The position numbers and the translations under genes were made by a program. DNA of 63,669 nt, the filler included, from Thraustochytrium aureum (lineage: Eukaryota), in NCBI GenBank assembly GCA_012862495.1. It is 8 parts of 6 records of this genome, joined end to end, with 100 filler letters (N's around TTAATTAATTAA, not from the genome) between each part and the next. Parts side by side here need not be neighbours in the genome. Positions count along the whole stretch, not along the records: positions 34,690 to 49,491 come from BLSG01000388.1; 7 more parts are not named here. The stretch is one strand, 5' to 3'. Of the stretch, positions 15,073 through 59,316 are shown in pieces. The notes under the pieces were generated by a model. That model searched no databases. It was not told the DNA's origin and saw only the letters and a program-made list of their open reading frames with translations. Numbering within the stretch: position 1 is the stretch's first letter; every line of letters begins with the position of its first letter.

Positions 15073-15939
15073 ATGAGCGAGGAGAAGGCGAGGCAGCAAG
15101 CTCGCGAAGCCGTGCTGAGGAAGCACAAGGCCGAGCGCAAAGAGCTGCGCAAGGTCTGCAACGACGCGCTGAGCGGGAAGAAGGGCGACGAGCGCGCAGC
15201 CGCCGAAAAGGAGAATGCTGAGCGCAGCGATGCGATGGCGGCAAGACACGCAGCCGAGCTAGAGGCGTTCGACGCCGGGGAGGAGGTCGAAGGCGTGGAG
15301 CCAGTCGCCGCGGCCCCGCCCCAGTGCTGGGCGCGAACGGCAAGCCCTTGTCGAAGACGCAGCGGCGGCGCGAGAAGGAGAAGGCGAAGCAGCGCGAGGA
15401 CGAGAAGCGACGCGCCGAGCTCCGCGCAGGGCAGGGCCCTTCCGCGCGCGAAATCGAGCTTGAGCGGATCGCCAAGGCTCTGGGGCAACCTGGGACTTCA
15501 GGTGAAGGAGATGGAAGCAGATGGCCACTGCATGTTTCGCGCAGTGGCCGACCAGCTCGCGCAGAGCGGCAAAGGCAGCATCGACGCATCGACGAAGGAA
15601 CCACACCTGTTGCTCCGGTCGATGTGCACGCAGTTCATGAAGGCGCACCGGCACGAGTTTGAGCCCTTTGTTGCTGCGGAAAGCGAGGAGCCGATGCCGT
15701 TTGAGCGCTACCTAGAGCGGATGCAGAAGACCTCCGAATGGGGCGGCCAGCTCGAGCTGCGGGCGCTCGCGGGCGCCCTGGAGACGCCGATCAAGGTCGT
15801 GGACGCGGAGCGTGGCGAGGCGCTGGTGATGGGGGAGGAGTTTTCGGGCGAGCCGCTTGTCATAACCTTTCACAGGCACTTTCTGGCCCTCGGCGAGCAC
15901 TACAACTCTGCCGAGCCACAGCGCGCCGCGAGCGAGTAG
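15073..15939 (+). CDS. OTU-domain deubiquitinase, OTUD6B/Otu2-like (compensating frameshifts near 15320 and 15485)
   Basis: N-terminal HKAERKELR coiled coil, SKTQRRREK in the alternative frame, catalytic EADGHCMFRAV, WGGQLELRAL, GEHYNS. Confidence 0.9.
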   Translation: MSEEKARQQAREAVLRKHKAERKELRKVCNDALSGKKGDERAAAEKENAERSDAMAARHAAELEAFDAGEEVEGVEPVAAAPPQCWARTASPCRRRSGGARRRRRSSARTRSDAPSSAQGRALPRAKSSLSGSPRLWGNLGLQVKEMEADGHCMFRAVADQLAQSGKGSIDASTKEPHLLLRSMCTQFMKAHRHEFEPFVAAESEEPMPFERYLERMQKTSEWGGQLELRALAGALETPIKVVDAERGEALVMGEEFSGEPLVITFHRHFLALGEHYNSAEPQRAASE

Positions 15940-29476: not shown

Positions 29477-29931
29477 GGTAGTCGACGGCGCTGCGCAGCG
29501 GCCCGCCGCCAAGAGGCCGTTTGAAAAGAATTGACTATTTCTGCAAGTCCCTCGGAGGCCGGCTCATCGTTTGGCTTTGGCAAGGTGTATGCCGCTGGCG
29601 GCGCGGTGCTATCCCGGCCAGCGAGCGAGCGAGCGCTTCTTGCGGCGCTCGTCCGCCAGCGCGCGGTCCGTTTCACGGCACTGGTCAAAGGCTGGGCGCG
29701 CTGGACGCCCCCGACTCACACCCCAACTCGCGCCACGCCGAGCCGAGCCGGCCGGCCCAGGTAACGCGGCACGCCTCCAAGCCCCCCGAGAGAGCCAAGC
29801 ATGCCATCGCCAGCCCCCTCGTCCACAGCACNNNNNNNNNNNNNNNNNNNNNNNNNNNNNNNNNNNNNNNNNNNNTTAATTAATTAANNNNNNNNNNNNN
29901 NNNNNNNNNNNNNNNNNNNNNNNNNNNNNNN

Positions 29932-32900
29932 ACCGCCGCGGAGACGTTACCTTGGCCAAGCAGGAAAGGCTGCAGTCGCTCGAGAGTTGGCCGAGGCAAC
30001 GGCTTCGTCAGTACATCTGCGACTTGGTCACTTGAGGAGCAGTGTACGAGGTGAATGAAGCCCAGGCTGACAAGTTCGCGGATCTTGAGGTAGCGAAGGG
30101 CAAAGTGACGCGTGCGCATGTTCATTCGGTCCGTGCGGAGGAGGCCGATTAGCGGCTCGCTGTCGACGAGCATGGTTGTAGCGTTGGGCAGTTTGACGCC
30201 GATGTCGAGGAGAAGTTGGCGGGCGTAGAGGACTCGAAGGCAGGCCATGTAGAGGGCGAACAGTTCGCTTTCCGTGCTGCTGGTGGCAAGCAGCGATTGT
30301 CGCTTGGATTGTACGATGAGTGGAGTGCCATTCAAGAAAACGGCTATGCCGCTGACACCGTAGCCTTCGTTGTCAGGTAGAAAGCTGGCATCGGAGTAGG
30401 CTGTGAGGTTGAGGCCTTCGGGCCGTTGCGTTCCTTGAATGAGGACACCATGATCCAGAGTTCCCTTGATGTAGCGGACCACCTTCTTGAGCGCCTTCAT
30501 GTGTTCGTCTCCGCTGGCACGAGCGTGCCGCGACAGCAGCTGAGTGGCGAAAGCTAGGTCGGGCCGCGTGTGGCACAAGTAGATGAGCTTGCCCAGTAGC
30601 CGACGATACTCGCTGTGTTCGGGCCCGGGTTCATCGAGATGGGCGAGCTCAGTGGACGTTGAGACGGCGAGTTTGGTCGGGTTGGCGTCTGCGAGACCTG
30701 CCGCTTCGACGATCTCCTTGGCGAGGCGCGGCTGAGAGATCTTGAAGCCGTTGGACGTGCGTTCGATAGTTAGGCCGAGGTACTCGCTTGACGGGTCGAC
30801 CTTGATCGTGAGGTGCTTGCGGAGGAATGAGAGCAGGTCTTCGAAGGCTTGTTCGTGCTTGTACGCGACCAGGACGTCGTCGACGTAGATGACCAGGATG
30901 ATGGTAAGCTCAGTCTCCGCCTTGAGCGTGAAGACCGTCGGGTCGATGGCGCTTTGACAGAGTCCGTGCTCCTTGAGAAGCGAGAAGAAGTGGTCGAGCC
31001 AGCGCCGAGGGGCGCTGTTGATACCGTAGAGACTTTTCTTGAGCAGCAGGGCGAATCGCTTGGTGTCGAGCGTGATCCCTGGAGGCGGTAGGACGAGCAG
31101 GCGGTGCTCTGTGGTGTCAATTGACGCCTGTAGGAAGGCTGTTTTGACGTCGAGCTGTCGCGTTTCCATGCCAAAGGTGGCAGCAAGGTGCAGGACCATC
31201 TTGATTGCGGTTGTGCTCGCGGTTGGACTGTAGCAGTCGGCGATGTCGATGCCTTTGCTCAGTTCAAAGCCACGGGCGACGACGCGTGACTTGAGAATGC
31301 CGTCGACTTTCTTGCGGTACACCCACTTGGTGCTCATTGGACGCGGGTCCGAAGGAGAGCGAGGGACCACCTCGAACGTGTTGGTTGCCAGTAGACTTTG
31401 CCACTCGTCGTTCATGGATTCGAGCCACGCTGTGCGATACTCGGGAACCATCTGTTGCCATTCCTTGAAGGAGTCAGGCGTTGGGACTCCATCATCGAAG
31501 GGTGCGGCGGCTTCGCGGATCGCATCTTCTTGGAGAGAGTCAGCAGGCACACGAGACGTGGAGGACGAGCTGGTGTTCACCGCCGTACTGGCGAGCAGGG
31601 AAGAGAAGAGGGCAAAGACGTCCATGTCGTCAAGGATGGAGGTCGTCTCGAGCTCGGGAGGTGCGTGTTCGATGCGCAGAGGACGAGAGGGCGGCGGAGA
31701 AGAGCCAGCAGAGGAGACGAGCTCAAGCAGGGGAGAGCGCAAAGGAGGCGAGCGGGCTGGAAGCGGGGCGGACAGGAACGTGTCGGGTTTGTCGTCAGGC
31801 AAAGGAAAGACGGACTCGACGAATTTGGCAGAGCGTGACGCGATGAGCTTGTGCGTGTCGAGCGTGTAGAAGAGATATGTCCCGGTGGACAAATCGCGGT
31901 TGTACCCAACGAAGATCGAAGGACGAGTTCGGTCTTCGCCCTTTCGCGGGTTCGGGACGAGAGGCCAGGCCAGGCAGCCGAAGACACGAAGGTGGCCGAG
32001 GGGCGGAGGGCGACCAAAGAGGAGCGCGTACGGCGAGGCCTTGCCTGTCGTAGGAAGGCGAAGGTTGCGCAGGTAGACAGCGGTGTGGAGAGCTTCGACC
32101 CACCATTCCTCGGAGAGGTTGCAGCCCGCAAGGAGAGTGCGAGCGTCTGCAAAGGCTTTGTTAAGGGCCTCCGCTTTGCCGTTCAGCCAGTGGTGGTGGG
32201 GCGTGCTGATGACGTGGTTCCAACCAAGGCCGCGAATGGTTTGCGCGCCAGAACTGTCCCCGAGGAAGTACGACGCGGCGTCGGTGAGGATGGTCCGCGG
32301 GCCAGTTGGGTCGCCAAAGCCGTGCCAAAAGCGGCTCCACGTAAGGATGGCGTTCGGGATGTCTTTGAGCGAGCGCAGCTCAACCGTGAAGGCGAAGCCA
32401 CTGTAGTCGTCGAGAACGTTGAAGGCGTATTGGAAGCCGTTGCGCGAGCGAGGGGCGTGCAGAACGTCGGCATGGCAGAACTGGCCAATGTCCGTGGATT
32501 TGGGCTGGCGCGGGGCCGAGGACCGCGAGGCTTTGGGCATCTTGCCGCGGGCGCACGGGACGCAGTCGTCAGTGGGTAGCGATGAGTGAAGGACCTGAAG
32601 GCCGGAGCCGTGGTCCGCGATGTTGGCGAGGCGAGAGCGGCCAGGGTGCCCGAGGCGGGCGTGCGCCAGCTCAGGGGGGATGGCCGCCGACGCGGTTGGC
32701 AGAGGATTGCCAGCGAGCACCGCCGAGCTGGTGCACACCGCCGCACTGGTAGACACCGCCGCACGAGTAGACACCGCCGGGTGTGCAGAGCCGTGGGTCA
32801 TGCTGGTGTTGGAGATTGGCAACACGTAGACGCCATTTACGGGGCGAAGTGGCACAATGTGACCGGCCGCGAGCTGCATGACGCAGCCTTTGAGGTCGAC

Positions 32901-34250
32901 GTTGTGCTCGAGACGAATGAGCTGGGAGATAGAGACCAGCGTAAGTGGCGCGTCCTCCGAGAGGCGGCAGTTGGGCAGGAGGAGGATGTGCGTGCGACCG
33001 TCGGCACTCTGGACGGGAAGGCGAAGGGTCCCAATGGCCTGGATAGACGCAAAGGACCCGTTGGCGCACATGATGGATTCACCGGTGGCCGGGGTGATGT
33101 CCGAGAGGAGATGGCGATGTGGCGTCAGCGAGTGGCTCGCGCCAGAGTCCAGAAGCGCAATTGTCGGGCCCGTGGCGGGGACACTGGTCGTGGCTGAGGC
33201 GAGGAGATCAGCGTCGACGAAGGCGGACACGATGCGGTCGGGAAGGGTGGGTAGTGGCGCTGACTGCGAGCTGGCCTTTGTGCGGCAGACGGCTTCAAGA
33301 TGGCCGCGGCGATGGCAGAAAGAGCAGTCTGCGAAGCGGAACTTGCAGTCGCGACGGAGATGGCCGGGCTTGCCGCACGATTCGCAGTTCATCGAGGTGC
33401 TGGGCGGCGAGGTTGGTGCGAAGCGTCGCATGGCGGGCTGGCGCTCGGCGAGCATGGCAGAGAGAGCAGAGACCTGCTCGCTGAGCGCGCTGAGGCTGAG
33501 GCCGGACGAGGCGTTCGCGCTGTGCTCTTGCGCGGACTCCTGCGTCGCGAGGGCACGAGCACGGTCGAGGATGGCCGTTCGCGCGCTGGAGAAGGTGAGT
33601 GCAGAGGCGCGAGAGAGCAGTTCCGTAGTAGTGCTGGAGAATTCCCCGGGGAGAGCCGTGGTGAGCAGAATACCAAGGAGCAGGGATTCCACGGTGGCTT
33701 GCGACTGAATGAGGCGATTGCGAGCATCGGCAAAGTCGGCGAGGAACTTGTTGACGTGCTGCGGATCGGTTGACGTGCATGTCATGTTGCGCAGCGCGAC
33801 GAACTGGTCAGCTTGGTGCGCCAGCGTTGTCGACTCAAAGTGGTTGCAGGCAAGTCTGTATGCCTTGTAGCCGCAGGAGTTGTCATTGTCAGTCCACAGA
33901 ATGTGCGCCACCCCCGAGTCCTGAAAGCCAGCGATCATGGTACGGAAGATGAGGTTCGAGGCGCGGATGTAGGCCATCCGTTGCGTCGGCTGTAGGGCTG
34001 GATCAATCTGCCACTCACGGAGGTGCGATGAGAGGATGTGCTTGTAGATCATCCAGTCGTTCAGCGTGGCTGACTTGAGGAGAGGCGTTGGAAATGTGAC
34101 TTTGCTAGTCGGCATGTGACCAACCGAGTCGGTGTCGAAGTCAAAGCCACCAAGGAGAACTGATCGGTCGTCCGCGTCGGATCCGACGGAGCCGCCGGAG
34201 GAGAACTGCATTGTGGCGGTTTTCCGCGCACTTTTGGATCTCCTGCCCAT
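29932..34250 (-). CDS. Copia gag-pol polyprotein (about 1440 aa visible, no stop seen before the contig end)
   Basis: Zinc knuckles CESCGKPGHLRRDC and CSFCHRRGHLEAVC. Protease LLDSGASHS. HARLGH..CVPC. Integrase HADV/LTDAA/NGKAE. RT LDVKTAFL, SLYG, YVDD. RNase H YSDAS, SSTESE, QVADVLTK. Confidence 0.96.
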
Positions 34251-34589
34251 GGTTGATTGTTGAAGTTGTAGGAGCGGTCCGGTCCTGGAGACGGGGACGC
34301 TTGAAGTGGAGAAGGAGTTGATGAATTGGTCGGGCCCTGGAGGCGTTGACGCTGGAAGGTCCTGTGGTGCCTTGAGGGGAGTTTGAGACCCGTGGCGAGG
34401 ACTTGTTGGAGAGTTTTGAGAGGTCCGGAGGACGCTGTGAGGAGGAGCTTGGGCCTTGTGGAAAGAAGAACCGTTCGTTCGTTCTTTCGTTGTGGTGGAG
34501 TGGAGCGCGTGGCTTGGGTCCTGGAGACACCACGGTCCTGCCGGCCTTGGCGCCGGCGGTTTGCTCGTTCGAGAGCACTGAGCCGATAA
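29932..34589 (-). mobile_element. Ty1/Copia LTR retrotransposon internal region (LTRs not assembled)
   Basis: The whole contig is a 5' leader plus one uninterrupted gag-pol ORF in PR-INT-RT-RH order. Confidence 0.95.
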
Positions 34590-34709
34590 NNNNNNNNNNN
34601 NNNNNNNNNNNNNNNNNNNNNNNNNNNNNNNNNTTAATTAATTAANNNNNNNNNNNNNNNNNNNNNNNNNNNNNNNNNNNNNNNNNNNNCTTAATCCACC
34701 TAAGACCTT

Positions 34710-34850
34710 CTAGTTCAAAAACGTCATAACCTTAACCCATTAAGGGGTCAAGATAAAACCGACGAGAAATCGAAGATCACAGGAGGGCACTATCTGGCTG
34801 AAACCAGTTACGACGCCATGTGCCTCCTACCGCCAGGCCTGGCTCGCAAT
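34710..34850 (-). ncRNA. candidate Fanzor omegaRNA scaffold / element right end (boundaries approximate)
   Basis: Inverted repeats overlap and follow the ORF end: 34781-34790 pairs with 34820-34828, an inner hairpin at 34794-34807, a palindrome at 34832-34843, and a hairpin at 34731-34752. The position matches known TnpB/Fanzor omegaRNAs. Confidence 0.5.
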
Positions 34851-36397
34851 CTCTCAAGAGGTGTAGAGGGTGCTCCCCACCTCGTACTACGCTATTGTAA
34901 AAGACATCAAAGATATTGATGGCGGCATTGAAGTCCCTGTCCCATGTCTTGCCACACTTGTTGCAAATGCGCACTCCATGGAGGTCCTTCATCACACCAT
35001 CCTTGTCTAATCCCCGCATAGGTCTCATCGTAAATCCGCGACAACAGGATGACATCTTGGACGTTCTAAATTCGTCCACGGAGATGATTTCATACCCCGA
35101 TTTGATGGCATGTCGCTTGATTTTCTTCGTTGGACCACCCGGTGACGTCCCTTTAAAACCGTTGGTCTTGCTGCAGTCTCCGATACCGAGCGGTTTCTTC
35201 CTGTCAAACGTTACCCAGTTGAGCATCTTGTCTATGGTTCGTTTTTCAGCAATGCGGGCTTCAGCCTTCAATTTGAGCAACTGCCTGTTGTGGTAGTGGC
35301 TGTAGATGGCGTCATAAACCTCACATCGTAAAAGTATGGCCTCACGTAGATTGCCAAAGTCTGTCGTCTTGAGAGAGTGTTCACTGAGCTGTGCTTCAAG
35401 GGCCCGAATGCCCCTGTGTCGTTGGAGGATCTTTACCCTCTCTAGAACTTTTCGCCTCTTCGATTCGTGGATATACCTCTTCTTGGTGTAGTTTCGCATT
35501 TCCATCACAGGTATGCCATGCTCGTCAGTATCTCCAGTGGGAGACACACATGTAAACATGTTGTGATGACCGACGTCTGCAGCAGCGAAGTTGCAGGGGT
35601 TTGAAATGTCTCTGTTCTTGATGTTCTGGAAACTGTACCCGGGGTCCCAGTCTGACTCCATGATGAGCATCGATTTCTTCACTTTCTTTGCGCGCGCCCC
35701 CATCCTCTCTTTGTTTTTGTCGAATGTGAAATGGAACTCAAACCCGTTCGTGCGGAATTGTTTTCCTTCAAACACCCAACCAGGCCCCCGCTTGGGAATC
35801 TCTAGCCAATCAGAAAGGTCCGGGTTACTTTCCCTGAAGTTGTTCCACTCCTCCCATCGCTTGCGCTCATCGTCGTCCTTCCAGTTTTTCTTTTTGTGAC
35901 AGGGTTTGAGGCGCCCCCAGAGTGTTTTGAGCACTGATACATCCATGGGGACAAACTTTGTACCAATGTGACGCTCAGGTATGAGAGTGAACGATTTGTA
36001 CGACAACTCGTCCGTGTTCGCACGCTCAATCTCTTGCATCATCATGTACCTGTACTGCGTGAGCTCTTCGTTGTCAAAAGCTCGATCGAAGAGAGTCGTT
36101 TCTTCGATGATGATTTTATCGATCTCTTCGCGGTCGAGGCCGATAGTCTTTGGGATGTACGTGTACCCCAGGGGATTTTTGTGAGTGACGCGCCCTGAAA
36201 TGAACTTGCCATGGCCTTTTCGGGGTAATCCGTACTTGGCGCGAAGGTAGGTTGCCATGTGATCATAGATTGCTATGTCGTTGTAGTTTTCAGCAGCAGT
36301 TGCTAATTGCGTTGCTTCGTAGCTTGGGATATTCCCATGGCAGCCGGTTTGCACGAGGTTTTCACGGCCGCCCCAAAGCGAACGGTAAACAGGTTCT
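34777..36397 (-). CDS. Fanzor (eukaryotic TnpB-like RNA-guided DNA endonuclease), Fanzor1-like; N-terminus in gap 36399-36958
   Basis: About 540 uninterrupted codons. FRTNG motif. RuvC-I AAADVG (Asp 35575-35577). GIGD. RuvC-II VDEFRTSK (Glu 35071-35073). Zinc finger SSCC...CNKC. RuvC-III WDRDFNAAINI (Asp 34933-34935). C-terminal HPLHLLR. Confidence 0.92.
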
Positions 36398-36958
36398 ANN
36401 NNNNNNNNNNNNNNNNNNNNNNNNNNNNNNNNNNNNNNNNNNNNNNNNNNNNNNNNNNNNNNNNNNNNNNNNNNNNNNNNNNNNNNNNNNNNNNNNNNNN
36501 NNNNNNNNNNNNNNNNNNNNNNNNNNNNNNNNNNNNNNNNNNNNNNNNNNNNNNNNNNNNNNNNNNNNNNNNNNNNNNNNNNNNNNNNNNNNNNNNNNNN
36601 NNNNNNNNNNNNNNNNNNNNNNNNNNNNNNNNNNNNNNNNNNNNNNNNNNNNNNNNNNNNNNNNNNNNNNNNNNNNNNNNNNNNNNNNNNNNNNNNNNNN
36701 NNNNNNNNNNNNNNNNNNNNNNNNNNNNNNNNNNNNNNNNNNNNNNNNNNNNNNNNNNNNNNNNNNNNNNNNNNNNNNNNNNNNNNNNNNNNNNNNNNNN
36801 NNNNNNNNNNNNNNNNNNNNNNNNNNNNNNNNNNNNNNNNNNNNNNNNNNNNNNNNNNNNNNNNNNNNNNNNNNNNNNNNNNNNNNNNNNNNNNNNNNNN
36901 NNNNNNNNNNNNNNNNNNNNNNNNNNNNNNNNNNNNNNNNNNNNNNNNNNNNNNNNNN

Positions 36959-37544
36959 TGTATTTTAACGGACAGGCGCTCGGCGTGGACAAGACAATCA
37001 TTGAGCAGGTGGCAGCGTCTCTGTTTGTAGCTTCGCGTGGGTCGCGGAGTTGTCTGGCCGACATGTACCTGTCTGTGACAAGTCCTTCCAGTTTCACTGG
37101 GCCGCTGCAGACGAGCGGTGTTAGGCTCTGGGGCCGTTGGTTGGTATTCGGAGGTACTGTGAACAAAGTGCACGTGCCTAGGGCCGTTCAGAAACTGCGC
37201 TCAGCGTGGGCCGGTACACTCACACGATTTGAGGCCGGAGAGCCCGTGGCGTCCTACGCGCAGTGCTTTTTCTTACCAACCCACAACCTCCAGGCTGTGC
37301 GGCGGGACCTGCACGAGCTCATCAGAGTATTTCTTCCTTTCCCCATCCGCAGCTGGAAACCGGGATTACCGGAGGTGTGAACAACGACGGTTGCGACCAC
37401 GACCATGTAAACATAAGCGAAGACGAGGAAGACAGCTCGGAGGAGGATTACGTCCCTGACCAGGACAGTCTCGTTGACGGAGAGGACAGCGCCTCGAGCA
37501 ATTGGGACAATCGGGATACCAACCGGCTAGCAACAATCGAGTAG
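36959..37544 (+). CDS. hypothetical ORF fragment(s) divergent from the Fanzor, with an acidic tail in another frame
   Basis: Open frame 36961-37380 (FNGQALGVDKTIIEQVAASLF...) and an overlapping acidic frame ending at 37544 (SEDEEDSSEEDYVPD). Confidence 0.35.
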
Positions 37545-40275
37545 TAGCGCGATCGCCGCCGCGGCAGCTCCAATCGGATAGCCGCAAACGAGTAAGGCGC
37601 GGCCACTCTCCGCGCTGCATCAACTCGATGCAACTAGGCCTAGCCGCTTTCATCACTCTCCCGTCCCAAGGCGCGGCGCGAGAGCCAGNNNNNNNNNNNN
37701 NNNNNNNNNNNNNNNNNNNNNNNNNNNNNNNNNNNNNNNNNNNNNNNNNNNNNNNNNNNNNNNNNNNNNNNNNNNNNNNNNNNNNNNNNNNNNNNNNNNN
37801 NNNNNNNNNNNNNNNNNNNNNNNNNNNNNNNNNNNNNNNNNNNNNNNNNNNNNNNNNNNNNNNNNNNNNNNNNNNNNNNNNNNNNNNNNNNNNNNNNNNN
37901 NNNNNNNNNNNNNNNNNNNNNNNNNNNNNNNNNNNNNNNNNNNNNNNNNNNNNNNNNNNNNNNNNNNNNNNNNNNNNNNNNNNNNNNNNNNNNNNNNNNN
38001 NNNNNNNNNNNNNNNNNNNNNNNNNNNNNNNNNNNNNNNNNNNNNNNNNNNNNNNNNNNNNNNNNNNNNNNNNNNNNNNNNNNNNNNNNNNNNNNNNNNN
38101 NNNNNNNNNNNNNNNNNNNNNNNNNNNNNNNNNNNNNNNNNNNNNNNNNNNNNNNNNNNNNNNNNNNNNNNNNNNNNNNNNNNNNNNNNNNNNNNNNNNN
38201 NNNNNNNNNNNNNNNNNNNNNNNNNNNNNNNNNNNNNNNNNNNNNNNNNNNNNNNNNNNNNNNNNNNNNNNNNNNNNNNNNNNNNNNNNNNNNNNNNNNN
38301 NNNNNNNNNNNNNNNNNNNNNNNNNNNNNNNNNNNNNNNNNNNNNNNNNNNNNNNNNNNNNNNNNNNNNNNNNNNNNNNNNNNNNNNNNNNNNNNNNNNN
38401 NNNNNNNNNNNNNNNNNNNNNNNNNNNNNNNNNNNNNNNNNNNNNNNNNNNNNNNNNNNNNNNNNNNNNNNNNNNNNNNNNNNNNNNNNNNNNNNNNNNN
38501 NNNNNNNNNNNNNNNNNNNNNNNNNNNNNNNNNNNNNNNNNNNNNNNNNNNNNNNNNNNNNNNNNNNNNNNNNNNNNNNNNNNNNNNNNNNNNNNNNNNN
38601 NNNNNNNNNNNNNNNNNNNNNNNNNNNNNNNNNNNNNNNNNNNNNNNNNNNNACCTGCGTTGCTCAGGACACTCTCGAAAACGTCAGGTCCACCTACGTC
38701 AAGTTTGTGAAGATCTCCCAGAACAGAAATAACTCCGGAGAACCTTGCGCTGGCCGGGTTCCTTCTTCTCGTTGCGAAGCAGGTTCACAAGACTGCGCAC
38801 TTCGTCGGAGGCTGGCCTGCAAGAGATTCTATTCTCGACTTTGATGACGCCTTGCGCTTCCGTCAGCACGTCCTCGAGTTTCGCACCCATCCCGCACATC
38901 ATCCTCCGGTATGAGGCCTCCAGCAGTCCTCGCGCTCCCACGAAGCGCTCGTTGCTTTTTCTGCTGTCACGGTTGCACATGGCGCGGCTTCGTAATAAGG
39001 TTCAAGCGTATTCGGGTGGTGCTTATGTTAACTTCTTCACCTAAATATTCTTCTACTAGTCTTGTAAATTCGCACCACGCCGAGTCTCACGTAATTTTAC
39101 TATTTTGTGGTGGACTGCGTNNNNNNNNNNNNNNNNNNNNNNNNNNNNNNNNNNNNNNNNNNNNNNNNNNNNNNNNNNNNNNNNNNNNNNNNNNNNNNNN
39201 NNNNNNNNNNNNNNNNNNNNNNNNNNNNNNNNNNNNNNNNNNNNNNNNNNNNNNNNNNNNNNNNNNNNNNNNNNNNNNNNNNNNNNNNNNNNNNNNNNNN
39301 NNNNNNNNNNNNNNNNNNNNNNNNNNNNNNNNNNNNNNNNNNNNNNNNNNNNNNNNNNNNNNNNNNNNNNNNNNNNNNNNNNNNNNNNNNNNNNNNNNNN
39401 NNNNNNNNNNNNTGGAAACTCGCAAGCGCGGCCACACCGAAGAGTCTCGCTAGCGCATCGACCAGCAGCTTTATGCGCGTCAGCAGATCGGTCGCGTTTC
39501 AGCACGATGATGTCCGACCCATGGCGCGGCGAAGGGGTGCGTTCCAGGCGCGATGCGATTCAATCCTCGTGCCAGGAGATCGCGCTCTAAAGCAGAGTAG
39601 TTTCATAAGAGCGCGCAGGCCACTTCCAGATCACTCGCAGAAGCAATGCATTGCACTTTACGCGCGCCTCTCCGGTGTCTATCGGTAACTTTGCCAGGGA
39701 GCGCGTTTTGCGTTCGGCCAAGCTCGCACGTCACGTTTGCCCTGCCTAGAGGCCTACCCATTCAATCAAGCTTTTGAAGTCGCACCTCCCGTCTTTTAGC
39801 GCTTGGTAGAGCAGCAAATGCCTTGGCTGGCGTTGACTTTCAGCGGTGGGTTGCACTTGACACAACCAGTCAGCACCGCGCTGAACGAAAAGAAAAAAAT
39901 CTGCTGCAATTCAATCAAGAGTGCGAGTAGGTAACTGCCAAATAACGGCGGATCTGACCGTCCTTAGCCCAAGCTGAACTGCTCCTGCTCGGTCATACTG
40001 TCAGCGGCTTCACACGTCCGCGACGCGCTCACAATCCTGAGGTCGCACTGTGAGCGGCTTTGAGACCACAACGCGGTCGGCGAGGTCGGCGAGTCGGGCC
40101 CCCTGGCTGTTGCTTCACCCCAAATGGCCATCATAGCGAAGGGAACCCTGCAGACCCCCAACAGAACAGAGCGCATACGTGCATACTAGTACGTACGTGC
40201 ACAGACGACAGGGAGAGAGCGTGCAGCGAAGTAGGCCTGCCATTGCTGCTGCTCTACTCGACTGGATACTGCTGG

Positions 40276-42697: not shown

Positions 42698-44083
42698 CTA
42701 CATGCGCGAACGAGCGAAACAGGCCACGGCCGTCGCGCCGAGTCCCAACACGGGGACCAGCGGGGCGCCATAGCGAAGCTGCTTTTTCAGCGGCGGGCCA
42801 GAGGCGCGATTCCGAGTCGCGCTCCTCGTGCACTCCAGCTCGTAGTCGATTTTGTGGAACACAAACTGCGCCACGTCCTCGGCAAGCTGAGCGGGCCGCT
42901 CCACGGGGACAAAGTGCCCACCCTCCTCGAGCACCGTGCAACTCCGCACGTCGAACGAGAGTTCGAGCAGAGCGCGAGGCATCTGAAGGACTTCTCCCGG
43001 TGCGTAGAGGAGCGCGGTCGGGACGTTGATGTACTCGGGTCCGCGCACGGAGGCCCCACTCAGCAAGACCTCTCTGTACAGGCGCAGCGAGGAGCCCATT
43101 GAGCGCGTCGCCCAGAATATGGTCGCCATAGTCAAGAGCTCCTCTAGGTGCTCCTCTGGCGCCCACGTGTTGTAGTGGTACTTTTCGCTCACGTAAGCAA
43201 GCAGCCCCGCCGGCGAGTCGTTCAAGCCGTGGCCGATCGTGTCGGGCTTGGTAGCATTCTGCAAAAAATAACCTGCGTGCTGCTTTACGGCACCGAGCAG
43301 CCCCGCCGTTGCGACAGCCTCACGCGCATTGAGCGTCAGCCACGGCGCCCCAAGGTTTGCGGCGAGTCGAATCGACTTGTTGAGCGCGGTGAGCGAAAGC
43401 GTGCGTGGGGCTCGCACAACTGGCAGGTTGGTGTGGAGCGCTACGCACCCTGGATACTCGGCTGCCATAGAGGAGGCGATTTCCCCGCCCCAGTCACCGC
43501 CTTGCACGACATATTTTTCGTACCCGAGCCCGTCCACCATCAGCTTGTTATACAAGCGAGCCATGTCGGTCGCCGACACAGACTTGTTCGAGCGCGAGAA
43601 ACCGTATCCGCAAATGCTTGGGACAACCACGTCAAACCCGCGGGCTGCAAACTCTGGCACCGCGCGCGCAAAATCAAATCCAGTTGAAGGCCAGCCATGG
43701 CACAAAATTATGGGGACTGGCTCGCCGCGTTCGGGCCGCGTCGTGGCCTTCGTAAAGATAAAGTGCAGCTCGGCGCCCTCCTCGACCTCCATCATGAACT
43801 GGTCGAGTTTGTTCAATTCCGCCTCTCGTTCGCGCCACCGCTCCAAGAACGGCCCGCGCCACGCCTCGATCTGCTTCGCAAGCTCGCGCACCGACATGCC
43901 GTGATACCACTCGTCCACCTCGCGCTTGTCCTTGCGCGCGGCGCCGTCCGAGCCGGCTCGTTGCGCTTGAAAGCTCGTAGGCACGCTGGGCCCCATCCCG
44001 AACGTTTCCGGCAGCCTGACATCCTCCAGTTTCTCCTTGAGCTCCGCGAGCACCTCGTCGCTCAGGTTGACTGCGAACGGCCT
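42698..44083 (-). CDS. microsomal-type epoxide hydrolase (EHN + alpha/beta hydrolase) with a C-terminal hydrophobic tail; 5' end in gap
   Basis: RPFAVNLSDEVLAELKEKL (EHN), HGWP oxyanion motif, PSICGYGFS, nucleophile QGGDWG, DSPAGLLAY, GGHF. Confidence 0.92.
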   Translation of the reverse strand, partial: RPFAVNLSDEVLAELKEKLEDVRLPETFGMGPSVPTSFQAQRAGSDGAARKDKREVDEWYHGMSVRELAKQIEAWRGPFLERWREREAELNKLDQFMMEVEEGAELHFIFTKATTRPERGEPVPIILCHGWPSTGFDFARAVPEFAARGFDVVVPSICGYGFSRSNKSVSATDMARLYNKLMVDGLGYEKYVVQGGDWGGEIASSMAAEYPGCVALHTNLPVVRAPRTLSLTALNKSIRLAANLGAPWLTLNAREAVATAGLLGAVKQHAGYFLQNATKPDTIGHGLNDSPAGLLAYVSEKYHYNTWAPEEHLEELLTMATIFWATRSMGSSLRLYREVLLSGASVRGPEYINVPTALLYAPGEVLQMPRALLELSFDVRSCTVLEEGGHFVPVERPAQLAEDVAQFVFHKIDYELECTRSATRNRASGPPLKKQLRYGAPLVPVLGLGATAVACFARSRM

Positions 44084-54167: not shown

Positions 54168-54506
54168 GACCTACTAACTATCTGATTCAGCGTACTGCGC
54201 GTTAGAGAGCCCTGCGCCTGCCCACGGCCGGCGCGCGCGCTAGCAACCCCCCACTTCGCCACGCAGTGTCTCACTCACTTACGTTCCATCGTCATCTTCG
54301 CTCGACGTGAGCAGGCCCTCGATCGCCCTCAGAACCTCCGTGCTGACGCTCCCTAGCCGCGCGACACCCCGCGTCTGCGTCAGGCGCGCCGCCGCGTTGC
54401 GCTCCGNNNNNNNNNNNNNNNNNNNNNNNNNNNNNNNNNNNNNNNNNNNNTTAATTAATTAANNNNNNNNNNNNNNNNNNNNNNNNNNNNNNNNNNNNNN
54501 NNNNNN

Positions 54507-57500
54507 GTTTCCCAATCTCCTCCCAGGTCAGCGTCCGAAAACGCTGTCAAGGGGTTCTCTCCATCTGCTCCAGGAGCGAATCTCAACTGGACGTGCACCG
54601 TTCCGCGTAGGTATCCCAGCAGGTGCAAGATTGCCCTCTTGTGTTTCAGTTGCGGACTCTGGCCGAAGCGGGCCAACAACCCCACTGCAAAAGCGATGTC
54701 GGGCCGTGTGTAGAGTGCGGGATGGAAGAGCCTTCCCACCATGGATCGATACCATGCGTGTTCCGCCGCCCCGAGTGGAGGGCTTCCGTCCGCTCTGTTG
54801 GTCAAATCCACAGACACGGGAAGCGGTGTGTCCTTGGTCGTCTTGACGTCGGCGTCCTCCACTATCTGCTGGATTGCACTCGTCTGGTCCATCCTCAGCT
54901 CGTAGGTCCCTCCTTCTTGGGAGGGTAGCATCGTGATGTTCGTGCCAACATACTTGATGATCTGGCCAGGTCTCAGCCACTGGAACTTCAGCTCGTACTC
55001 GAGCTCGAGAGCCCGTCTCAGGTCTGTCACGCGCTGGGTGCTCCCAACCATGAGCAAGTCATCTACGTACGTGATCAGGTAGAGGTCTGCGCCAGGCACG
55101 TGGAAGACTCCTTCCTCTGTCCGGAGCGGAACTGCTCCAAACTTCTTGAGGGTGGCCGAGAGGTGCCTGTACCAAAGTCGGCCTGCAGCGCGCAACCCAT
55201 ATAGCGCGCCCTCGATCCGGAGCATCTGCCCAGGTTCTTCAAATCCTGGGATGCCCTTGGTGTAGACCGAATCTACTTCGAGTCGCCCGTACAGGTATGC
55301 CGCCTTGACGTCTGCCACCGCGAGGCTGTAGTTGCGGTTCACTGCGATACTCAGCAGTGTGCGTAACCCAAGGGGGTTGACCGTAGGGGAGTAATTGTTT
55401 TCCCCTGGGCGGTTCCGCTGTGTGAACCCTCGCGCAACGCACCGTGCTCTGTAAGTGAGGCCCTTTACCCCGGGTTTGAATCCACGAGCGAAGACCCACT
55501 TCAGTGTCACGATGTCGGCGTGCCGTGGGATCGTGTCGGCTCGAACGCGCCTGAAAGTCTTCATCCCTCCGAGGGTCTGACGTTCAAGATCCATGGCCGC
55601 GAGCCACTCGCGTGCTCGTTGCGGGTGATTTATCGCCTCTTGGTAGGTCCGTGGGACCGTCTCGCGTAATTCCTCCTCGATGGATCCAGTCTTCTGCGTG
55701 GTTTCCCCTGAGGTACCCACGTCGTCTTCTACGTCTCCTTCCGTCTTCGTGACGTATGCCCGGTAGCTGCCTTTGTCTCCAGCATTCCCGCCGCCTCGCT
55801 GAAACTGCGGTCGGAGGGCGTTTGCCACAGGGTCAAACCGCGTCCGGGGCGCGATGCGCCGCGGGCGGGCCGCGCCGCCTGTTTCAGCGCCGTCTCCTTG
55901 GCTACCGGGGCCGAAGACTGTGAGGTCCGCCGCACGTTCGTCGACCACGTCGCGGCTAGGGTCAACCTCAGGTTGTCCCTCTACCGGGCCTCTGCCCGGC
56001 GGCGCGCCCTCTTCCACCTCGTCGTCCTGGACGACGACAGTGGGTGCAATTTCCTCCGGCGCGTGGTCCTCGTTCGCTGGCACCGCCGTCGGGTCGCGTT
56101 TGGTCGAAGCCAGGTACGGGTACTCGTTTTCCAGGACGATCACATCCCGCGAAACGCGTACGCTGCGCGTGTCATCCATGAGGACTGTCATTGTCCCGTT
56201 GGGTTCCCAACCCAGGATGACGCACTCGAGACCGCGAGCCGTAAGTTTGTGGCTCGGCGTCGGGTCTCGCAGGAACGCGCGTGCCCCAAAAGGGCGCGCG
56301 TGGTGGTAGTGGGGTTTTACACCGGTCCACTTCTCGTACGGCGAGCACGTGCCGCGCCGGGGCAGAATGTTCCGAATCTGCGCCGCAAGTTTGAATGCGT
56401 ACGGGAAGTAACGGTATGCCAATCCGCTCGCCGCCATCATCGTGCGTGCCATGGCAGCCAAATGTGAGTGGTACGCTTCCACCGGGTTCAATTTGCTGTC
56501 GTGTGCTGGCGTCCGTAGGTGCTTGATACCCAACCGCACGAGATGCTGCCCAAAAGCTGTGTGCGGTCCGAACTCGGGACCGCGGTCAGTGATCAGGGCT
56601 TGAGGCAGTGAGCATCCGAGTCGATGCTCCTTCTGCATCTCCGTGAGGAATCGCAGGAGGACGTCCGTGACCAATTCTGCCGTGTGGTTACTGAGGCAGT
56701 ACACCCATGAGTATCCCGTGAAGACGTCCACGAAATGCATTATGTAAAATGCGGGTGCCTTCAAGCCGCGCACTCGGGGTGCGACGATCAGGTCCACAGA
56801 GACGACCTCGTTCGGGGCCGATACAGCGTTTCTCTGGGAACCCTCGCGGCGAGTCTTCGATCGCCGCTGGTTGCCCTGTATGCATGGAATGCACGTACGC
56901 TGCATGGTGTCCACACCTTCCCCGAGTGCGAGTCTGATGAGTTCCGGGTTTGCGTGCCCGAGTCTCGCATGCCAGTCCGGAGTGCGAGGACCCCCATGTG
57001 TTGCCGGGGGAATCGAACTGGGGTGCAGGCGAGCAGTGGGCGCAACGCGTGTAAATGCCACTTTGCGTGCGTCCTCTGCTACTGGAATTGGCCCGGGCTC
57101 CGCCGTAGGGTCGGCGTCCACCAAATGAGCTCGGCCGTTTCCAGCACCGTTGCCACGTACTATTCTGGCCCTCGCGTAGTACAGTCCAGCTCGTTCATCC
57201 AAGAGCCACCGTCTACCGTCAGAGAACTCCAAACACGAGTCCTGGGGTTCTAGGTGGATGCCCACTCTGCCGTGAGCTGCTCGGAGGCTACTCACGGACA
57301 AGATTGTAGCCTGAGCCGGAGCGCAGTACACGCGCTGTAAGGTTATGCGCTCTGAGCGCACTTGACCATCACTCTTTGTGGTGATTTCCAGAGGTAGGTC
57401 GCCGATGTACTCTACCTTGTGTCGAGTTCCAGCGAAACCAAAAAGGTTGGCTTGCGTCACTCGTTGGACGTTGATCAGGTCCTCGACCCGCCCATGCACG

Positions 57501-58918
57501 TGTCTGCTCGCTCCGGTGTCTACCACAAGAAGTGCTTTGGTAGGGCAGTGTGATACCCGCCCCGTGACCGCGTCTTCGGGGCGCAGATCACCGTCCTCGC
57601 CATTGCTCGTGGCGACTTGCACAGTACCATCAAACCCAAGATGCCCCGCGTCCCACGCGTTCTCTGGAATGCCCGGCTCATCGTCTTGGGAGGGTTCTGG
57701 CTCGGTACGGAGCACCATGGACCAGCCTTGTTGTCCGGCATCTCGACCTGCAGGGGTGGCCGCATCTCCCCGCGCCTCGCCTAGGGTGGACAGGGTCCTG
57801 TTCAGTTGGGCGAGCTGCGTCGACAGACGCTCAGCAAAATCCCCCTGGAGGTGGCCTGCAGCATATGTGCTGCTCTGGACGCCCTGAGCCTGTAAGTCCG
57901 GTTGGTGGCTCGTCACATACGTGCCACCGCTGTTTCCTTTTGCTCGGGGTTCCTTGCTGCTGTCGCCCCTTTGGTGCCTTGCATGCGCGTGGCCGTCGTT
58001 TCTTCCCTTTCCGGTCCCACGCGGTCCGTTCCGCCTTGTTCCCTGCGTCCCAAGAAGCGGGCAGTCCCTCTTGTAATGCCCCTGCTCCCCACAGTTGAAG
58101 CAGATGACTTCGCCGTGGGGTTTGCCCTTCGCTTTCGTCGCGGGGCGTCGGCGGGACTGCGCCTTCCCGCCGTGCTGGGAACCCGTCTGTGCACTGTAAA
58201 GCACAGTACCCCCTCTGCCTTGCCTCTCCTTTGCCACTCTGAGGATCGTGGTTAGCTTTGACAGGGCAATGTTGAGGGAGTCTCTCGGCGTCAGTCGCCC
58301 GCGCGTGATTTGCTGTTGGAGTTCCTGCGCGGCGACTGTCTCGCTGCGCAGGTCTTCCTTCAGGTCCGCTCCGAGGCGCCCAACGGCGTCCATCAGGAAT
58401 GAGTGCACGGTCGCCTGTGAAACCGTGTTCGAATCCAGGTCGGGGAAGGCGTCTACGCTCGCGACCCGGAACAGCGTCGCGTTTTCGATACCGACCTTGT
58501 TTAGATCGAACTTCCACTCCTTCAGTCGTCGCAACTCAGGCGGATCGCCGCCTCGACCTGGCACGACGCATGCCTCTTCGAGGAGGCGGTAGGCCTCGAG
58601 GCCACCTCGCATGTTTCTCCTCGTAGGCATTGCCTGGAGTGCGAAGGTTTTCGCAGCGGGCCCGCTCTTGCTGAGCGACACATCGATGAAGATCTGGAAC
58701 ATCTTGTCCAGAGTCTCAGGGATGTAGCCCACTGGGGCCTTGTCGACCAGAAGGATGATCGCTTCGGTGCGCACTCCATGACCTCTCAGCTCGTCACCCA
58801 GTTTCTGGACGAGCTTGTCGCGGTACGCGCCAAAAGCGTTCGGCCCTTTGAATTCGATGTTCGGCACGTCTCGGAGGCGGTCCTGCCAGTCCTTTGGCTT
58901 CATCGTAACCCTAAACAA
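54507..58918 (-). CDS. Copia gag-pol polyprotein; upstream gag portion in another frame (58911-59316)
   Basis: About 1470 uninterrupted codons with the motifs listed for the element. Confidence 0.93.
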
Positions 58919-59316
58919 TCGCCTCTGCGTCCCTCAGGGTCATCCCAGGCGTCGCGTCTCTCAGGTCGCACGACTCTTTAGATGCCGTCGCCGCCCTGGC
59001 ACTGTGTGTCGTGCTGGACGCGTTGGGCGTTCCCTGGGACGTCGCGCTGTGGGGTGGACTGTTCGATCGGTTTCGGTCTCGATTGAGGTGTCTATCGTGA
59101 TCCTCTTCATCCTCGACCACGTCCCTCGGTGGGGGAGTCCCGCTCTCTCGGTAGTAGGTCTCCCCCCTCCCCTCTGCAGGCCCCGGTGCCCGCAGGATCT
59201 GAGAGCCCGGTTCTGGGGTTCTCTGCCGGAATTCGGCCTCGACAAAACTATACTGGATCTCTTCACCAAGTTCCCGGTACATCTGTCGCATCTTCCCGTC
59301 GATCGCTTCGACGAGA
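54507..59316 (-). mobile_element. second, unrelated Ty1/Copia retrotransposon (internal region, truncated in RNase H and at the gag 5' end)
   Basis: Zinc knuckle CFNCGEQGHYKRDC. Protease VVDTGASRH. WHARLGH..CIPC. Integrase VSVDL/TDRGPEF/NPVE. RT ADVKAAYLYG, ALYGL, YVDD. RNase H FSDAD. Confidence 0.95.

What the first reader, a model, noticed from the sequence alone, without database searches (positions are those of the whole stretch)
34777..36397. Apparently intact Fanzor1-like RNA-guided nuclease in a protist genome
Seen: about 540 stop-free, intron-free codons with AAADVG, GIGD, VDEFRTSK, SSCC..CNKC and WDRDFNAAINI, in DNA visibly less GC-rich than the host genes. Known: TnpB/Fanzor proteins have a split RuvC with a zinc finger. 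In Fanzors the catalytic Glu is shifted next to the zinc finger (DE.xTS), as here. The FxT(D/N)G motif and length over 500 aa fit Fanzor1. Inference: all three acidic residues are present and there is no frameshift, unlike many host genes here, so this may be a recent, active programmable eukaryotic nuclease. The DVG (usually DPG) and TNG variants suggest a divergent lineage.
Basis: partly seen in the sequence, partly recalled or inferred. Interest (0 to 1): 0.9.

Follow-up and report, generated by a model that had tools for sequence, protein, structure and literature searches.

The report
Fanzor1 nuclease in small TTAA-flanked element
This is a genuine gene for a Fanzor1 protein, the eukaryotic cousin of CRISPR-Cas12, with all three catalytic residues kept but its first ~105 residues lost in an assembly gap; it likely sits in a small mobile element and is predicted, not shown, to cut DNA with an RNA guide, and it is one more member of a lineage already catalogued.

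Summary
Window 34777-36396 (-) is 539 stop-free codons of a Fanzor1: profile and fold searches put the solved Fanzor1s first (PpFz1 E 6e-25, SpuFz1 Z 15.6), well ahead of Fanzor2 and TnpB. The triad D274/E442/D488 is intact and all 71 columns invariant among nine close relatives are kept. The N-terminus (103-119 residues in full-length relatives) lies in a 560-N gap, so 'intact' cannot be confirmed. TNG is not a divergence mark (61 of 132 relatives). DVG is real but derived: it marks a small subclade nested among DPG Fanzor1s, inside a wider clade with a C-C zinc knuckle (44 of 46 versus 1 of 73). Close relatives already stand in a published catalogue (Jiang 2023, Data S1). New here: TTAA sits at both likely ends (the only 2 of 42 segment ends in the window), implying a ~2.27 kb Fanzor-only element, and the 3' end folds into a long hairpin (z -4.8), a candidate omega-RNA; a TTAA TAM is predicted. 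Host frameshifts look like homopolymer errors, so they do not show recency. Activity is untested. Verdict: new member of a known family, modest interest.

The parts
34777..36398 (-). Fanzor1 ORF, visible part (539 complete codons plus stop; 5' end in the gap)
36399..36958 (.). Assembly gap (560 N); inferred to hold the missing 103-119 N-terminal codons and a 5' leader of roughly 200-250 nt
   Evidence: relative L001/L002 has a shared leader of about 255-285 nt
35749..35751 (-). T216 of the WED-domain T(D/N)G motif (FRTNG)
   Evidence: motif described for Fanzor1 in PMC10711439
35575..35577 (-). RuvC-I catalytic Asp274, in DVG instead of DPG
35179..35181 (-). Gly406 of GIGD, inferred to stand where canonical TnpB has the RuvC-II glutamate
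   Evidence: invariant; position inferred from PMC10530073
35071..35073 (-). Shifted RuvC-II catalytic Glu442 (E-alt)
34954..35046 (-). Zinc finger (TNB): C451, C452, C478, C481; first knuckle is SSCC, not CxxC
34933..34935 (-). RuvC-III catalytic Asp488
34696..34786 (-). Long imperfect hairpin over the stop codon and 3' non-coding end; candidate omega-RNA scaffold (predicted)
   Evidence: -35.2 kcal/mol for 34690-34790, z -4.76, 0 of 300 shuffles; opposite strand z -1.78
34691..34694 (.). TTAA at the likely right end (candidate target-site duplication); the contig ends one base beyond it
36965..36968 (.). TTAA six bases past the gap, likely left end (candidate target site and predicted TAM)

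Best explanation
This is a Fanzor1 gene with an intact RuvC triad, likely carried by a ~2.27 kb non-autonomous element bounded by TTAA, and predicted to work as an RNA-guided DNA endonuclease. Shown: the fold, the triad, the zinc finger and the place among Fanzor1-like proteins. Inferred from the family: the transcript's 3' end (about 34810 to the TTAA at 34691, then some 15 bases of flank) would form the omega-RNA; the protein would bind it, read a TAM upstream of the target and cut both strands. Because the guide would be the flank beyond the right end and the TAM the TTAA before the left end, the natural target would be the empty insertion site, so cutting would favour retention or copying of the element. 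The element would be moved by a transposase from elsewhere; none is visible.
For: Profile of 17 relatives against PDB: PpFz1 5.7e-25, GtFz1 2.5e-22, SpuFz1 5.8e-18, then Fanzor2 6.8e-6 and ISDra2-type TnpB 0.014. Model (pLDDT 73.6): Foldseek ranks 1-7 are Fanzor1 chains; VIA Z 15.6, rmsd 6.7, 397 aligned over residues 22-516 for SpuFz1, against Z 11.4, rmsd 5.0, 193 aligned for Fanzor2. D/E/D kept in 128 of 132 relatives of 450 aa or more; the query keeps 71 of 71 columns invariant in nine close relatives. TTAA lies within 12 nt of only 2 of 42 segment ends in the window, exactly those bounding this element; window rate 0.00044 per base. Implied length 2,270 nt if the gap size is right; the three closest relatives lie on contigs of 2,341, 2,337 and 2,386 nt. 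3' hairpin z -4.76, strand-specific. Published precedent: TSDs form part of the Fanzor1 scaffold (PMC10711439); SpuFz1 is a single ORF in a 2.1 kb element (PMC10432273); GtFz1 TAM is TTAAN; in SpuFz1 the listed Mg ligands are D383, N385, E541, D606, not the residue after the Asp, and SpuFz1 itself reads DPN.
Against: No start codon or N-terminus can be seen. One copy only: no genome is held, no second copy or ghost in the window, so the ends rest on one 4-base repeat noticed after the fact; some 4-mer shared by two 12-base ends is common. No terminal inverted repeat between the TCCACC... right end and the six visible bases of the left end. The hairpin z is the best of six hand-picked windows; in a fixed scan of 54 windows the terminal one was lowest (-2.91) but a coding window reached -2.66. 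The downstream regions of distant relatives showed no comparable fold (best z -1.34 in L001, -2.18 in L003) and L001/L002 show no TTAA at their left end. Rfam gives nothing above gathering. An intact triad does not prove activity (CrFNuc).
Confidence: 0.7

Rival explanations
1. A Fanzor1 copy that looks intact but is no longer a working nuclease (broken 5' end in the gap, silent, or binding without cutting).
For: About a sixth of the protein is unseen; relatives include frameshifted and decayed copies (L002, L003); CrFNuc gave no cleavage; the first zinc knuckle and RuvC-I both depart from the usual motifs.
Against: 0 of 71 invariant columns changed; both motif changes are shared by a clade of intact relatives; the two bases at the gap edge fit the Ile codon of the closest relatives.
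Confidence: 0.2
2. The gene is a passenger of a larger element whose ends lie outside; the two TTAA are chance, and the unannotated frames at 36961-37380 and 38653-39120 are remains of that element.
For: Fanzor1s ride in many transposon types (PMC3627910); the two flanking pieces are unannotated and somewhat lower in GC, 58.6% and 52.1%.
Against: No Pfam hit for those frames, no longer homologue at E 0.1 among 537 candidates (weak evidence); closest relatives lie on 2.3-2.4 kb contigs.
Confidence: 0.25
3. The piece is not host DNA: a viral or contaminant contig wrongly scaffolded to a eukaryote.
For: It is tied to host DNA only through an N gap; GC is 10 or more points lower; giant-virus Fanzor1-like proteins head the viral fold search, at 14-19% identity; some relatives lie on contigs of 95-229 kb of unknown nature.
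Against: No relative found in four protein-based and two DNA-pattern scans of IMG/VR or in 50,697 phage records; these scans see close relatives only. The scaffold's genes are ordinary cellular ones. The TTAA on the host-side piece fits a real junction.
Confidence: 0.1
4. A prokaryotic TnpB of the D-hydrophobic-G plus shifted-Glu kind, not a Fanzor.
For: DVG with E-alt is the signature that Yoon et al. give for a prokaryotic clade apart from Fanzors.
Against: Length of relatives 631-681 aa, T(D/N)G motif, Fanzor1 fold over residues 22-516, nesting among DPG proteins; guided_TnpB scores 35.5 against a cut-off of 100; one hit in the GTDB scan, and it looks chimeric.
Confidence: 0.02

Closest known systems
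Fanzor1 (SpuFz1, PpFz1, GtFz1; PDB 8GKH, 9CF0, 9CER)
   Same: Fold, split RuvC with shifted Glu, T(D/N)G motif, zinc finger, size near 640 aa; single ORF in a ~2 kb element as for SpuFz1.
   Different: 13-15% identity in the Foldseek alignments; DVG in place of DPG/DPN; SSCC in place of CxxC; no terminal inverted repeats seen; ends, RNA and TAM untested.
Fanzor50_1834 (labelled family4) and Fanzor50_3678 (unclassified) in Data S1 of Jiang et al. 2023, PMC10530073
   Same: By eye, the first 400 residues shown share this subclade's motifs (KSFTIIPERH, TNGFEFHF, GHAKF; 3678 has FAAADIG and SPGGP).
   Different: Identity was not computed; the RuvC-I motif of 1834 lies beyond the cut of the cell; I saw no sign in the passages read that either was tested, and I could not map 'family4' onto Fanzor1a-d.
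Insect-virus Fanzor1 elements (SfAV, HAgv-1)
   Same: Non-autonomous, Fanzor only, 4-bp TTAN duplications, duplication inside the RNA scaffold.
   Different: Those have 13-bp inverted repeats; none seen here; a different branch by sequence is likely but was not tested.
Prokaryotic TnpB with rearranged RuvC-II (TnpB2, e.g. TvTnpB)
   Same: Shifted glutamate; the D-hydrophobic-G form of RuvC-I described for one such clade.
   Different: TnpBs are shorter (mean 480 aa against 620 for Fanzors); DVG here is nested among DPG Fanzor1-like proteins and so appears secondary.

Membership tests
Fanzor1 | Split RuvC with D-E-D triad and zinc finger between RuvC-II and III | tested here: met
   D274, E442, D488 align with the catalytic residues of PpFz1 and SpuFz1
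Fanzor1 | Shifted RuvC-II glutamate six residues before the zinc finger | tested here: met
   E442-FRTSKM-SSCC; definition from PMC10711439
Fanzor (Yoon et al. fingerprint) | DPG at RuvC-I ('near exclusively') | tested here: not met
   DVG; 105 of 132 relatives have DPG, 15 DVG. SpuFz1 (DPN) also fails it, so it is a tendency rather than a strict rule
Fanzor (Yoon et al. fingerprint) | First zinc knuckle CxxC | tested here: not met
   SSCC; xxCC in 44 of 46 clade members and 1 of 73 others; four cysteines remain
Fanzor1 | T(D/N)G motif in the WED domain | tested here: met
   FRTNG; TNG 61, TDG 54 of 132; motif named TDG in PMC10711439
Fanzor1 | Enlarged REC/WED architecture, closer to Fanzor1 than to Fanzor2 or TnpB structures | tested here: met
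   Fanzor1 chains align over residues 22-516, Fanzor2/TnpB/Cas12f only from about 240-260 on
Fanzor1 | Placement in the Fanzor1 clade in a tree with named references | not tested
   trees held only unnamed relatives; no reference sequences were on hand as stored proteins
Fanzor1 | Eukaryotic or eukaryote-virus host | tested here: inconclusive
   window is eukaryotic (Copia polyprotein, inositol phosphatase, FKBP-ERp29) but the piece is joined only through a gap; lineage unresolved
Fanzor1 | omega-RNA from the element's 3' end reaching into the flank | tested here: inconclusive
   hairpin predicted; no covariation data, no RNA holder listed
Fanzor1 | TAM- and guide-dependent DNA cleavage | not testable with these tools
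   needs a bench assay
piggyBac-type carrier | TTAA duplication with terminal inverted repeats starting CCY (recalled) | tested here: inconclusive
   TTAA at both candidate ends, but the visible termini (TCCACC and AATACA) are not inverted copies; most of the left end is in the gap
Fanzor2 / IS607 | TnpB-like size and fold, serine recombinase next door | tested here: not met
   IS607_TnpB 15.2 bits against cut-off 350; weaker profile and fold matches; no recombinase among the neighbours scanned

The most novel reading that the evidence does not exclude
An active, TIR-less, Fanzor-only element that inserts at TTAA, giving the first defined ends, omega-RNA and TAM for an untested Fanzor1 branch that has lost both textbook fingerprints (DPG to DVG, CxxC to xxCC). 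The return to a TnpB-like D-hydrophobic-G site could change how it cuts, and shows that DPG cannot be used alone to trace Fanzor ancestry.
Probability: 0.25. Interest if true: 0.6.

Novelty: new member of a known kind. Interest (0 to 1): 0.36.

Why it matters
Few Fanzor1s have been tested, and the bottleneck is usually finding the RNA and the TAM. If the TTAA ends are right, this locus hands over both as a direct prediction, for a branch only 13-15% identical to the solved enzymes in structure alignments. The subclade also shows that the 'DPG fingerprint' and the CxxC pattern used in published motif screens miss real Fanzor1s. It is not a new kind of system: a profile of this branch finds 3,697 representatives at E 0.001, and relatives are already in a published list.

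Tried and rejected
No whole genome is held, so copy number and empty sites could not be checked. Sequencing runs: one DNA run with a small share of words, no RNA holder listed; laid on 34690-37688 it gave one 151-base record identical to 34716-34866 and two partial matches near 37500-37665, none spanning the gap or an end. IMG/VR: nothing with the alignment, three single relatives or two 3'-end patterns. Phage records: no match. The ESM Atlas gave no result. The upstream frame 36961-37377: no Pfam family, no longer homologue, single-sequence model unusable at pLDDT 42. Host lineage: the same-scaffold epoxide hydrolase has no relative above 34% among 109 hits; the best named eukaryote is Palpitomonas bilix at 32%, which places nothing. 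Repeat search of 34690-39500 gave only short chance-level repeats. An inner TTAA-CCC at 34732 was considered as a piggyBac end and dropped: the far junction lacks GGG-TTAA. The first two rounds of motif searches in three papers' supplements found no member of this subclade, but the stored cells are cut at about 400 letters; a third round with N-terminal motifs found the relatives in one paper and none in the rows shown for the other two; one PDF supplement of PMC10432273 was unreadable. The published regular expressions match only 1 of 132 relatives each, so failing them says little. Three look-ups of earlier findings returned nothing.

Full report
Observation. Chance gives such a frame with probability 1.4e-12. 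It has no visible start: it runs into 560 N at 36399-36958. The piece holding it (34690-36398, 49.2% GC; GC3 0.60 against 0.74-0.82 in five host genes) begins 87 bases past the stop, at an artificial joint that occurs seven times in the window. The Copia polyprotein to the left is therefore another contig. The piece is tied to host-like DNA only through the gap.

Identity. Pfam finds the Cas12f1-like TNB domain (E 5e-12). Alone, the protein reaches only PpFz1 weakly in the PDB (E 0.088). A profile of 17 relatives ranks PpFz1 (5.7e-25), GtFz1 (2.5e-22) and SpuFz1 (5.8e-18) ahead of Fanzor2 (6.8e-6) and TnpB (0.014), and lines D274, E442 and D488 up with their catalytic positions. An AlphaFold2 model (pLDDT 73.6, pTM 0.57) has Fanzor1 chains at Foldseek ranks 1-7 and matches SpuFz1 at Z 15.6, rmsd 6.7, 397 residues over positions 22-516, while Fanzor2, TnpB and Cas12f align only from about residue 240-260. 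It is a Fanzor1 by profile and fold; I had no named reference sequences for a tree.

Relatives. A single-sequence search gave 16 relatives, nine at 41-85% identity, most 631-681 aa. Eight full-length ones carry 103-119 residues before the query's first residue (the ninth, P0002, 68), which fits the gap. A profile search found 3,697 representatives at E 0.001, of which the best 150 were listed. Among the 132 stored proteins of 450 aa or more, 128 keep D/E/D; RuvC-I reads DPG 105, DVG 15, DKG 4, DPN 4, DTG 2, other 2; the WED motif reads TNG 61, TDG 54. So TNG is ordinary. In a FastTree of 119 rows (13 dropped as fragments, very long or redundant) the query lies in a 14-member clade (support 0.997) with 10 DVG, inside a 46-member clade with 26 DPG, and 71 of the 73 rows outside have DPG. 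An IQ-TREE run on 45 chosen rows, meant to leave the motif column out, gave the same 14-member set at SH-aLRT 95 and six changes between Pro and non-Pro. DVG is thus most simply a secondary change. The 46-member clade has a clearer mark, an xxCC first zinc knuckle in 44 of 46 against 1 of 73 outside. The query keeps all 71 columns invariant in its nine closest relatives: no sign of decay.

Is the lineage known? Yoon et al. (PMC10711439; I read parts 2, 4 and 5 of 7, passages and supplement searches) call DPG near exclusive in Fanzors; it was the only paper listed for 'Fanzor', 'DPG' and 'motif'. But Data S1 of Jiang et al. (PMC10530073; section 6, passages, supplement rows) holds Fanzor50_1834 (family4) and Fanzor50_3678 (unclassified, FAAADIG), which by eye share this subclade's motifs. 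The branch is therefore catalogued, though I found no paper discussing its motif changes (searches; supplement cells are cut at about 400 letters, so more members may be hidden). SpuFz1, which is active, reads DPN, and Saito et al. (PMC10432273; passages and supplement rows) list D383, N385, E541 and D606 as metal ligands, so the residue after the aspartate is not a listed ligand and DVG need not harm catalysis (inference).

The element. TTAA occurs 25 times in 56,645 bases. Of 42 segment ends only two have it within 12 bases: 34691, one base from the contig end, and 36965, six bases past the gap. These bound 2,270 bases if the gap size is right; the three closest relatives lie on contigs of 2,341, 2,337 and 2,386 bases, as a repeated element of this size would assemble (inference). 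This was noticed after the fact, rests on one copy, and no inverted repeats are visible. The sense strand of 34690-34790 folds into one long imperfect hairpin, -35.2 kcal/mol, z -4.76, 0 of 300 shuffles, against z -1.78 for the other strand; it is the best of six chosen windows, and in a fixed scan of 54 windows the terminal one is lowest at -2.91 with a coding window at -2.66. A short hairpin at about 34795-34808 precedes it, which resembles the SL1-SL2-guide order described by Xu et al. (PMC11423790; passages). Distant relatives showed no comparable downstream fold and Rfam has no match above threshold. Yoon et al. report that target-site duplications form part of Fanzor1 scaffolds; Bao and Jurka (PMC3627910; passages) report TTAN duplications for viral Fanzor1 elements; GtFz1 uses TTAAN.

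Mechanism. Shown: fold, triad, zinc finger. Inferred from the family: an omega-RNA from the 3' end through the TTAA, a guide from the flank, a TAM at the left junction, predicted 5'-TTAA, and cleavage of the empty site, which would favour keeping or copying the element; mobilisation would need a transposase in trans. I put Fanzor1 identity near 0.97, the TTAA ends near 0.6 and present nuclease competence near 0.6.

Recency and provenance. The two host frameshifts examined sit at runs of C and restore sensible protein on a one-base shift; they look like sequencing errors, so a clean Fanzor frame does not show recent activity. An intact triad is not proof either: CrFNuc gave no cleavage. The host is a eukaryote whose lineage I could not place. 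Scans of IMG/VR and phage records found no relative; the GTDB scan gave one, on a 5 kb low-coverage contig where a 37% GC Fanzor tail runs into a 65% GC bacterial gene, most likely a chimera. Three JGI-collection loci hold more distant relatives, one complete, one frameshifted, one decayed among eukaryote-like genes.

Verdict. A real, well-preserved Fanzor1 with an unseen N-terminus; a new member of a known and already catalogued kind, with minor motif changes and a testable prediction for its ends, RNA and TAM. Interest 0.36.

Noticed in passing
window 29931-34589 (-) and 54506-58933 (-): Two Ty1/Copia-type gag-pol frames of 1,553 and 1,476 codons without a stop, each filling its own contig; the first was confirmed by Pfam (RVT_2, rve, zf-CCHC), the second read by eye. 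Their clean frames amid error-prone host genes suggest collapsed multi-copy, possibly young, elements.
   Followed up: partly
window 1800-1851 and 15310-15340: Host genes (inositol 5-phosphatase, an OTU-like gene) shift frame at runs of C, as from sequencing errors.
   Followed up: partly
window 8273-8372 and six more places: Contigs are joined by an artificial N44-TTAATTAATTAA-N44 linker; neighbours across it are not real neighbours.
   Followed up: yes
window 36961-37380 (+), 37233-37544 (+), 38653-39120: Unannotated open frames next to the element; the first starts at the TTAA without a start codon, as if interrupted by the insertion. No family or homologue found.
   Followed up: partly
L004:1-850: The 3' part of a related Fanzor1 (37% GC) runs into a 65% GC myxobacterial gene in a Polyangia MAG contig of 0.9x coverage; most likely a chimera, a warning for 'prokaryotic Fanzor1' claims.
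   Followed up: partly
L001:70-2319 and L002: Two copies of a related DPG element share a left end about 255-285 nt before the start codon with differing flanks; L001 has a hairpin and TTAA just after its stop, which would give a similar element length.
   Followed up: partly
protein clusters of P0029: Two short NCBI proteins labelled Xanthomonas citri on 248 and 517 bp contigs cluster with a Fanzor1 of this clade; probably contamination of those assemblies.
   Followed up: no
P0076 (1,740 aa): A relative with the Fanzor region at 1154-1719 behind 1,150 residues without a confident Pfam family; a fusion or a read-through gene call.
   Followed up: partly
window 42701-44083 (-): The host's epoxide hydrolase has no relative above 34% identity among the candidates scored, which suggests a poorly sampled eukaryotic lineage.
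   Followed up: partly
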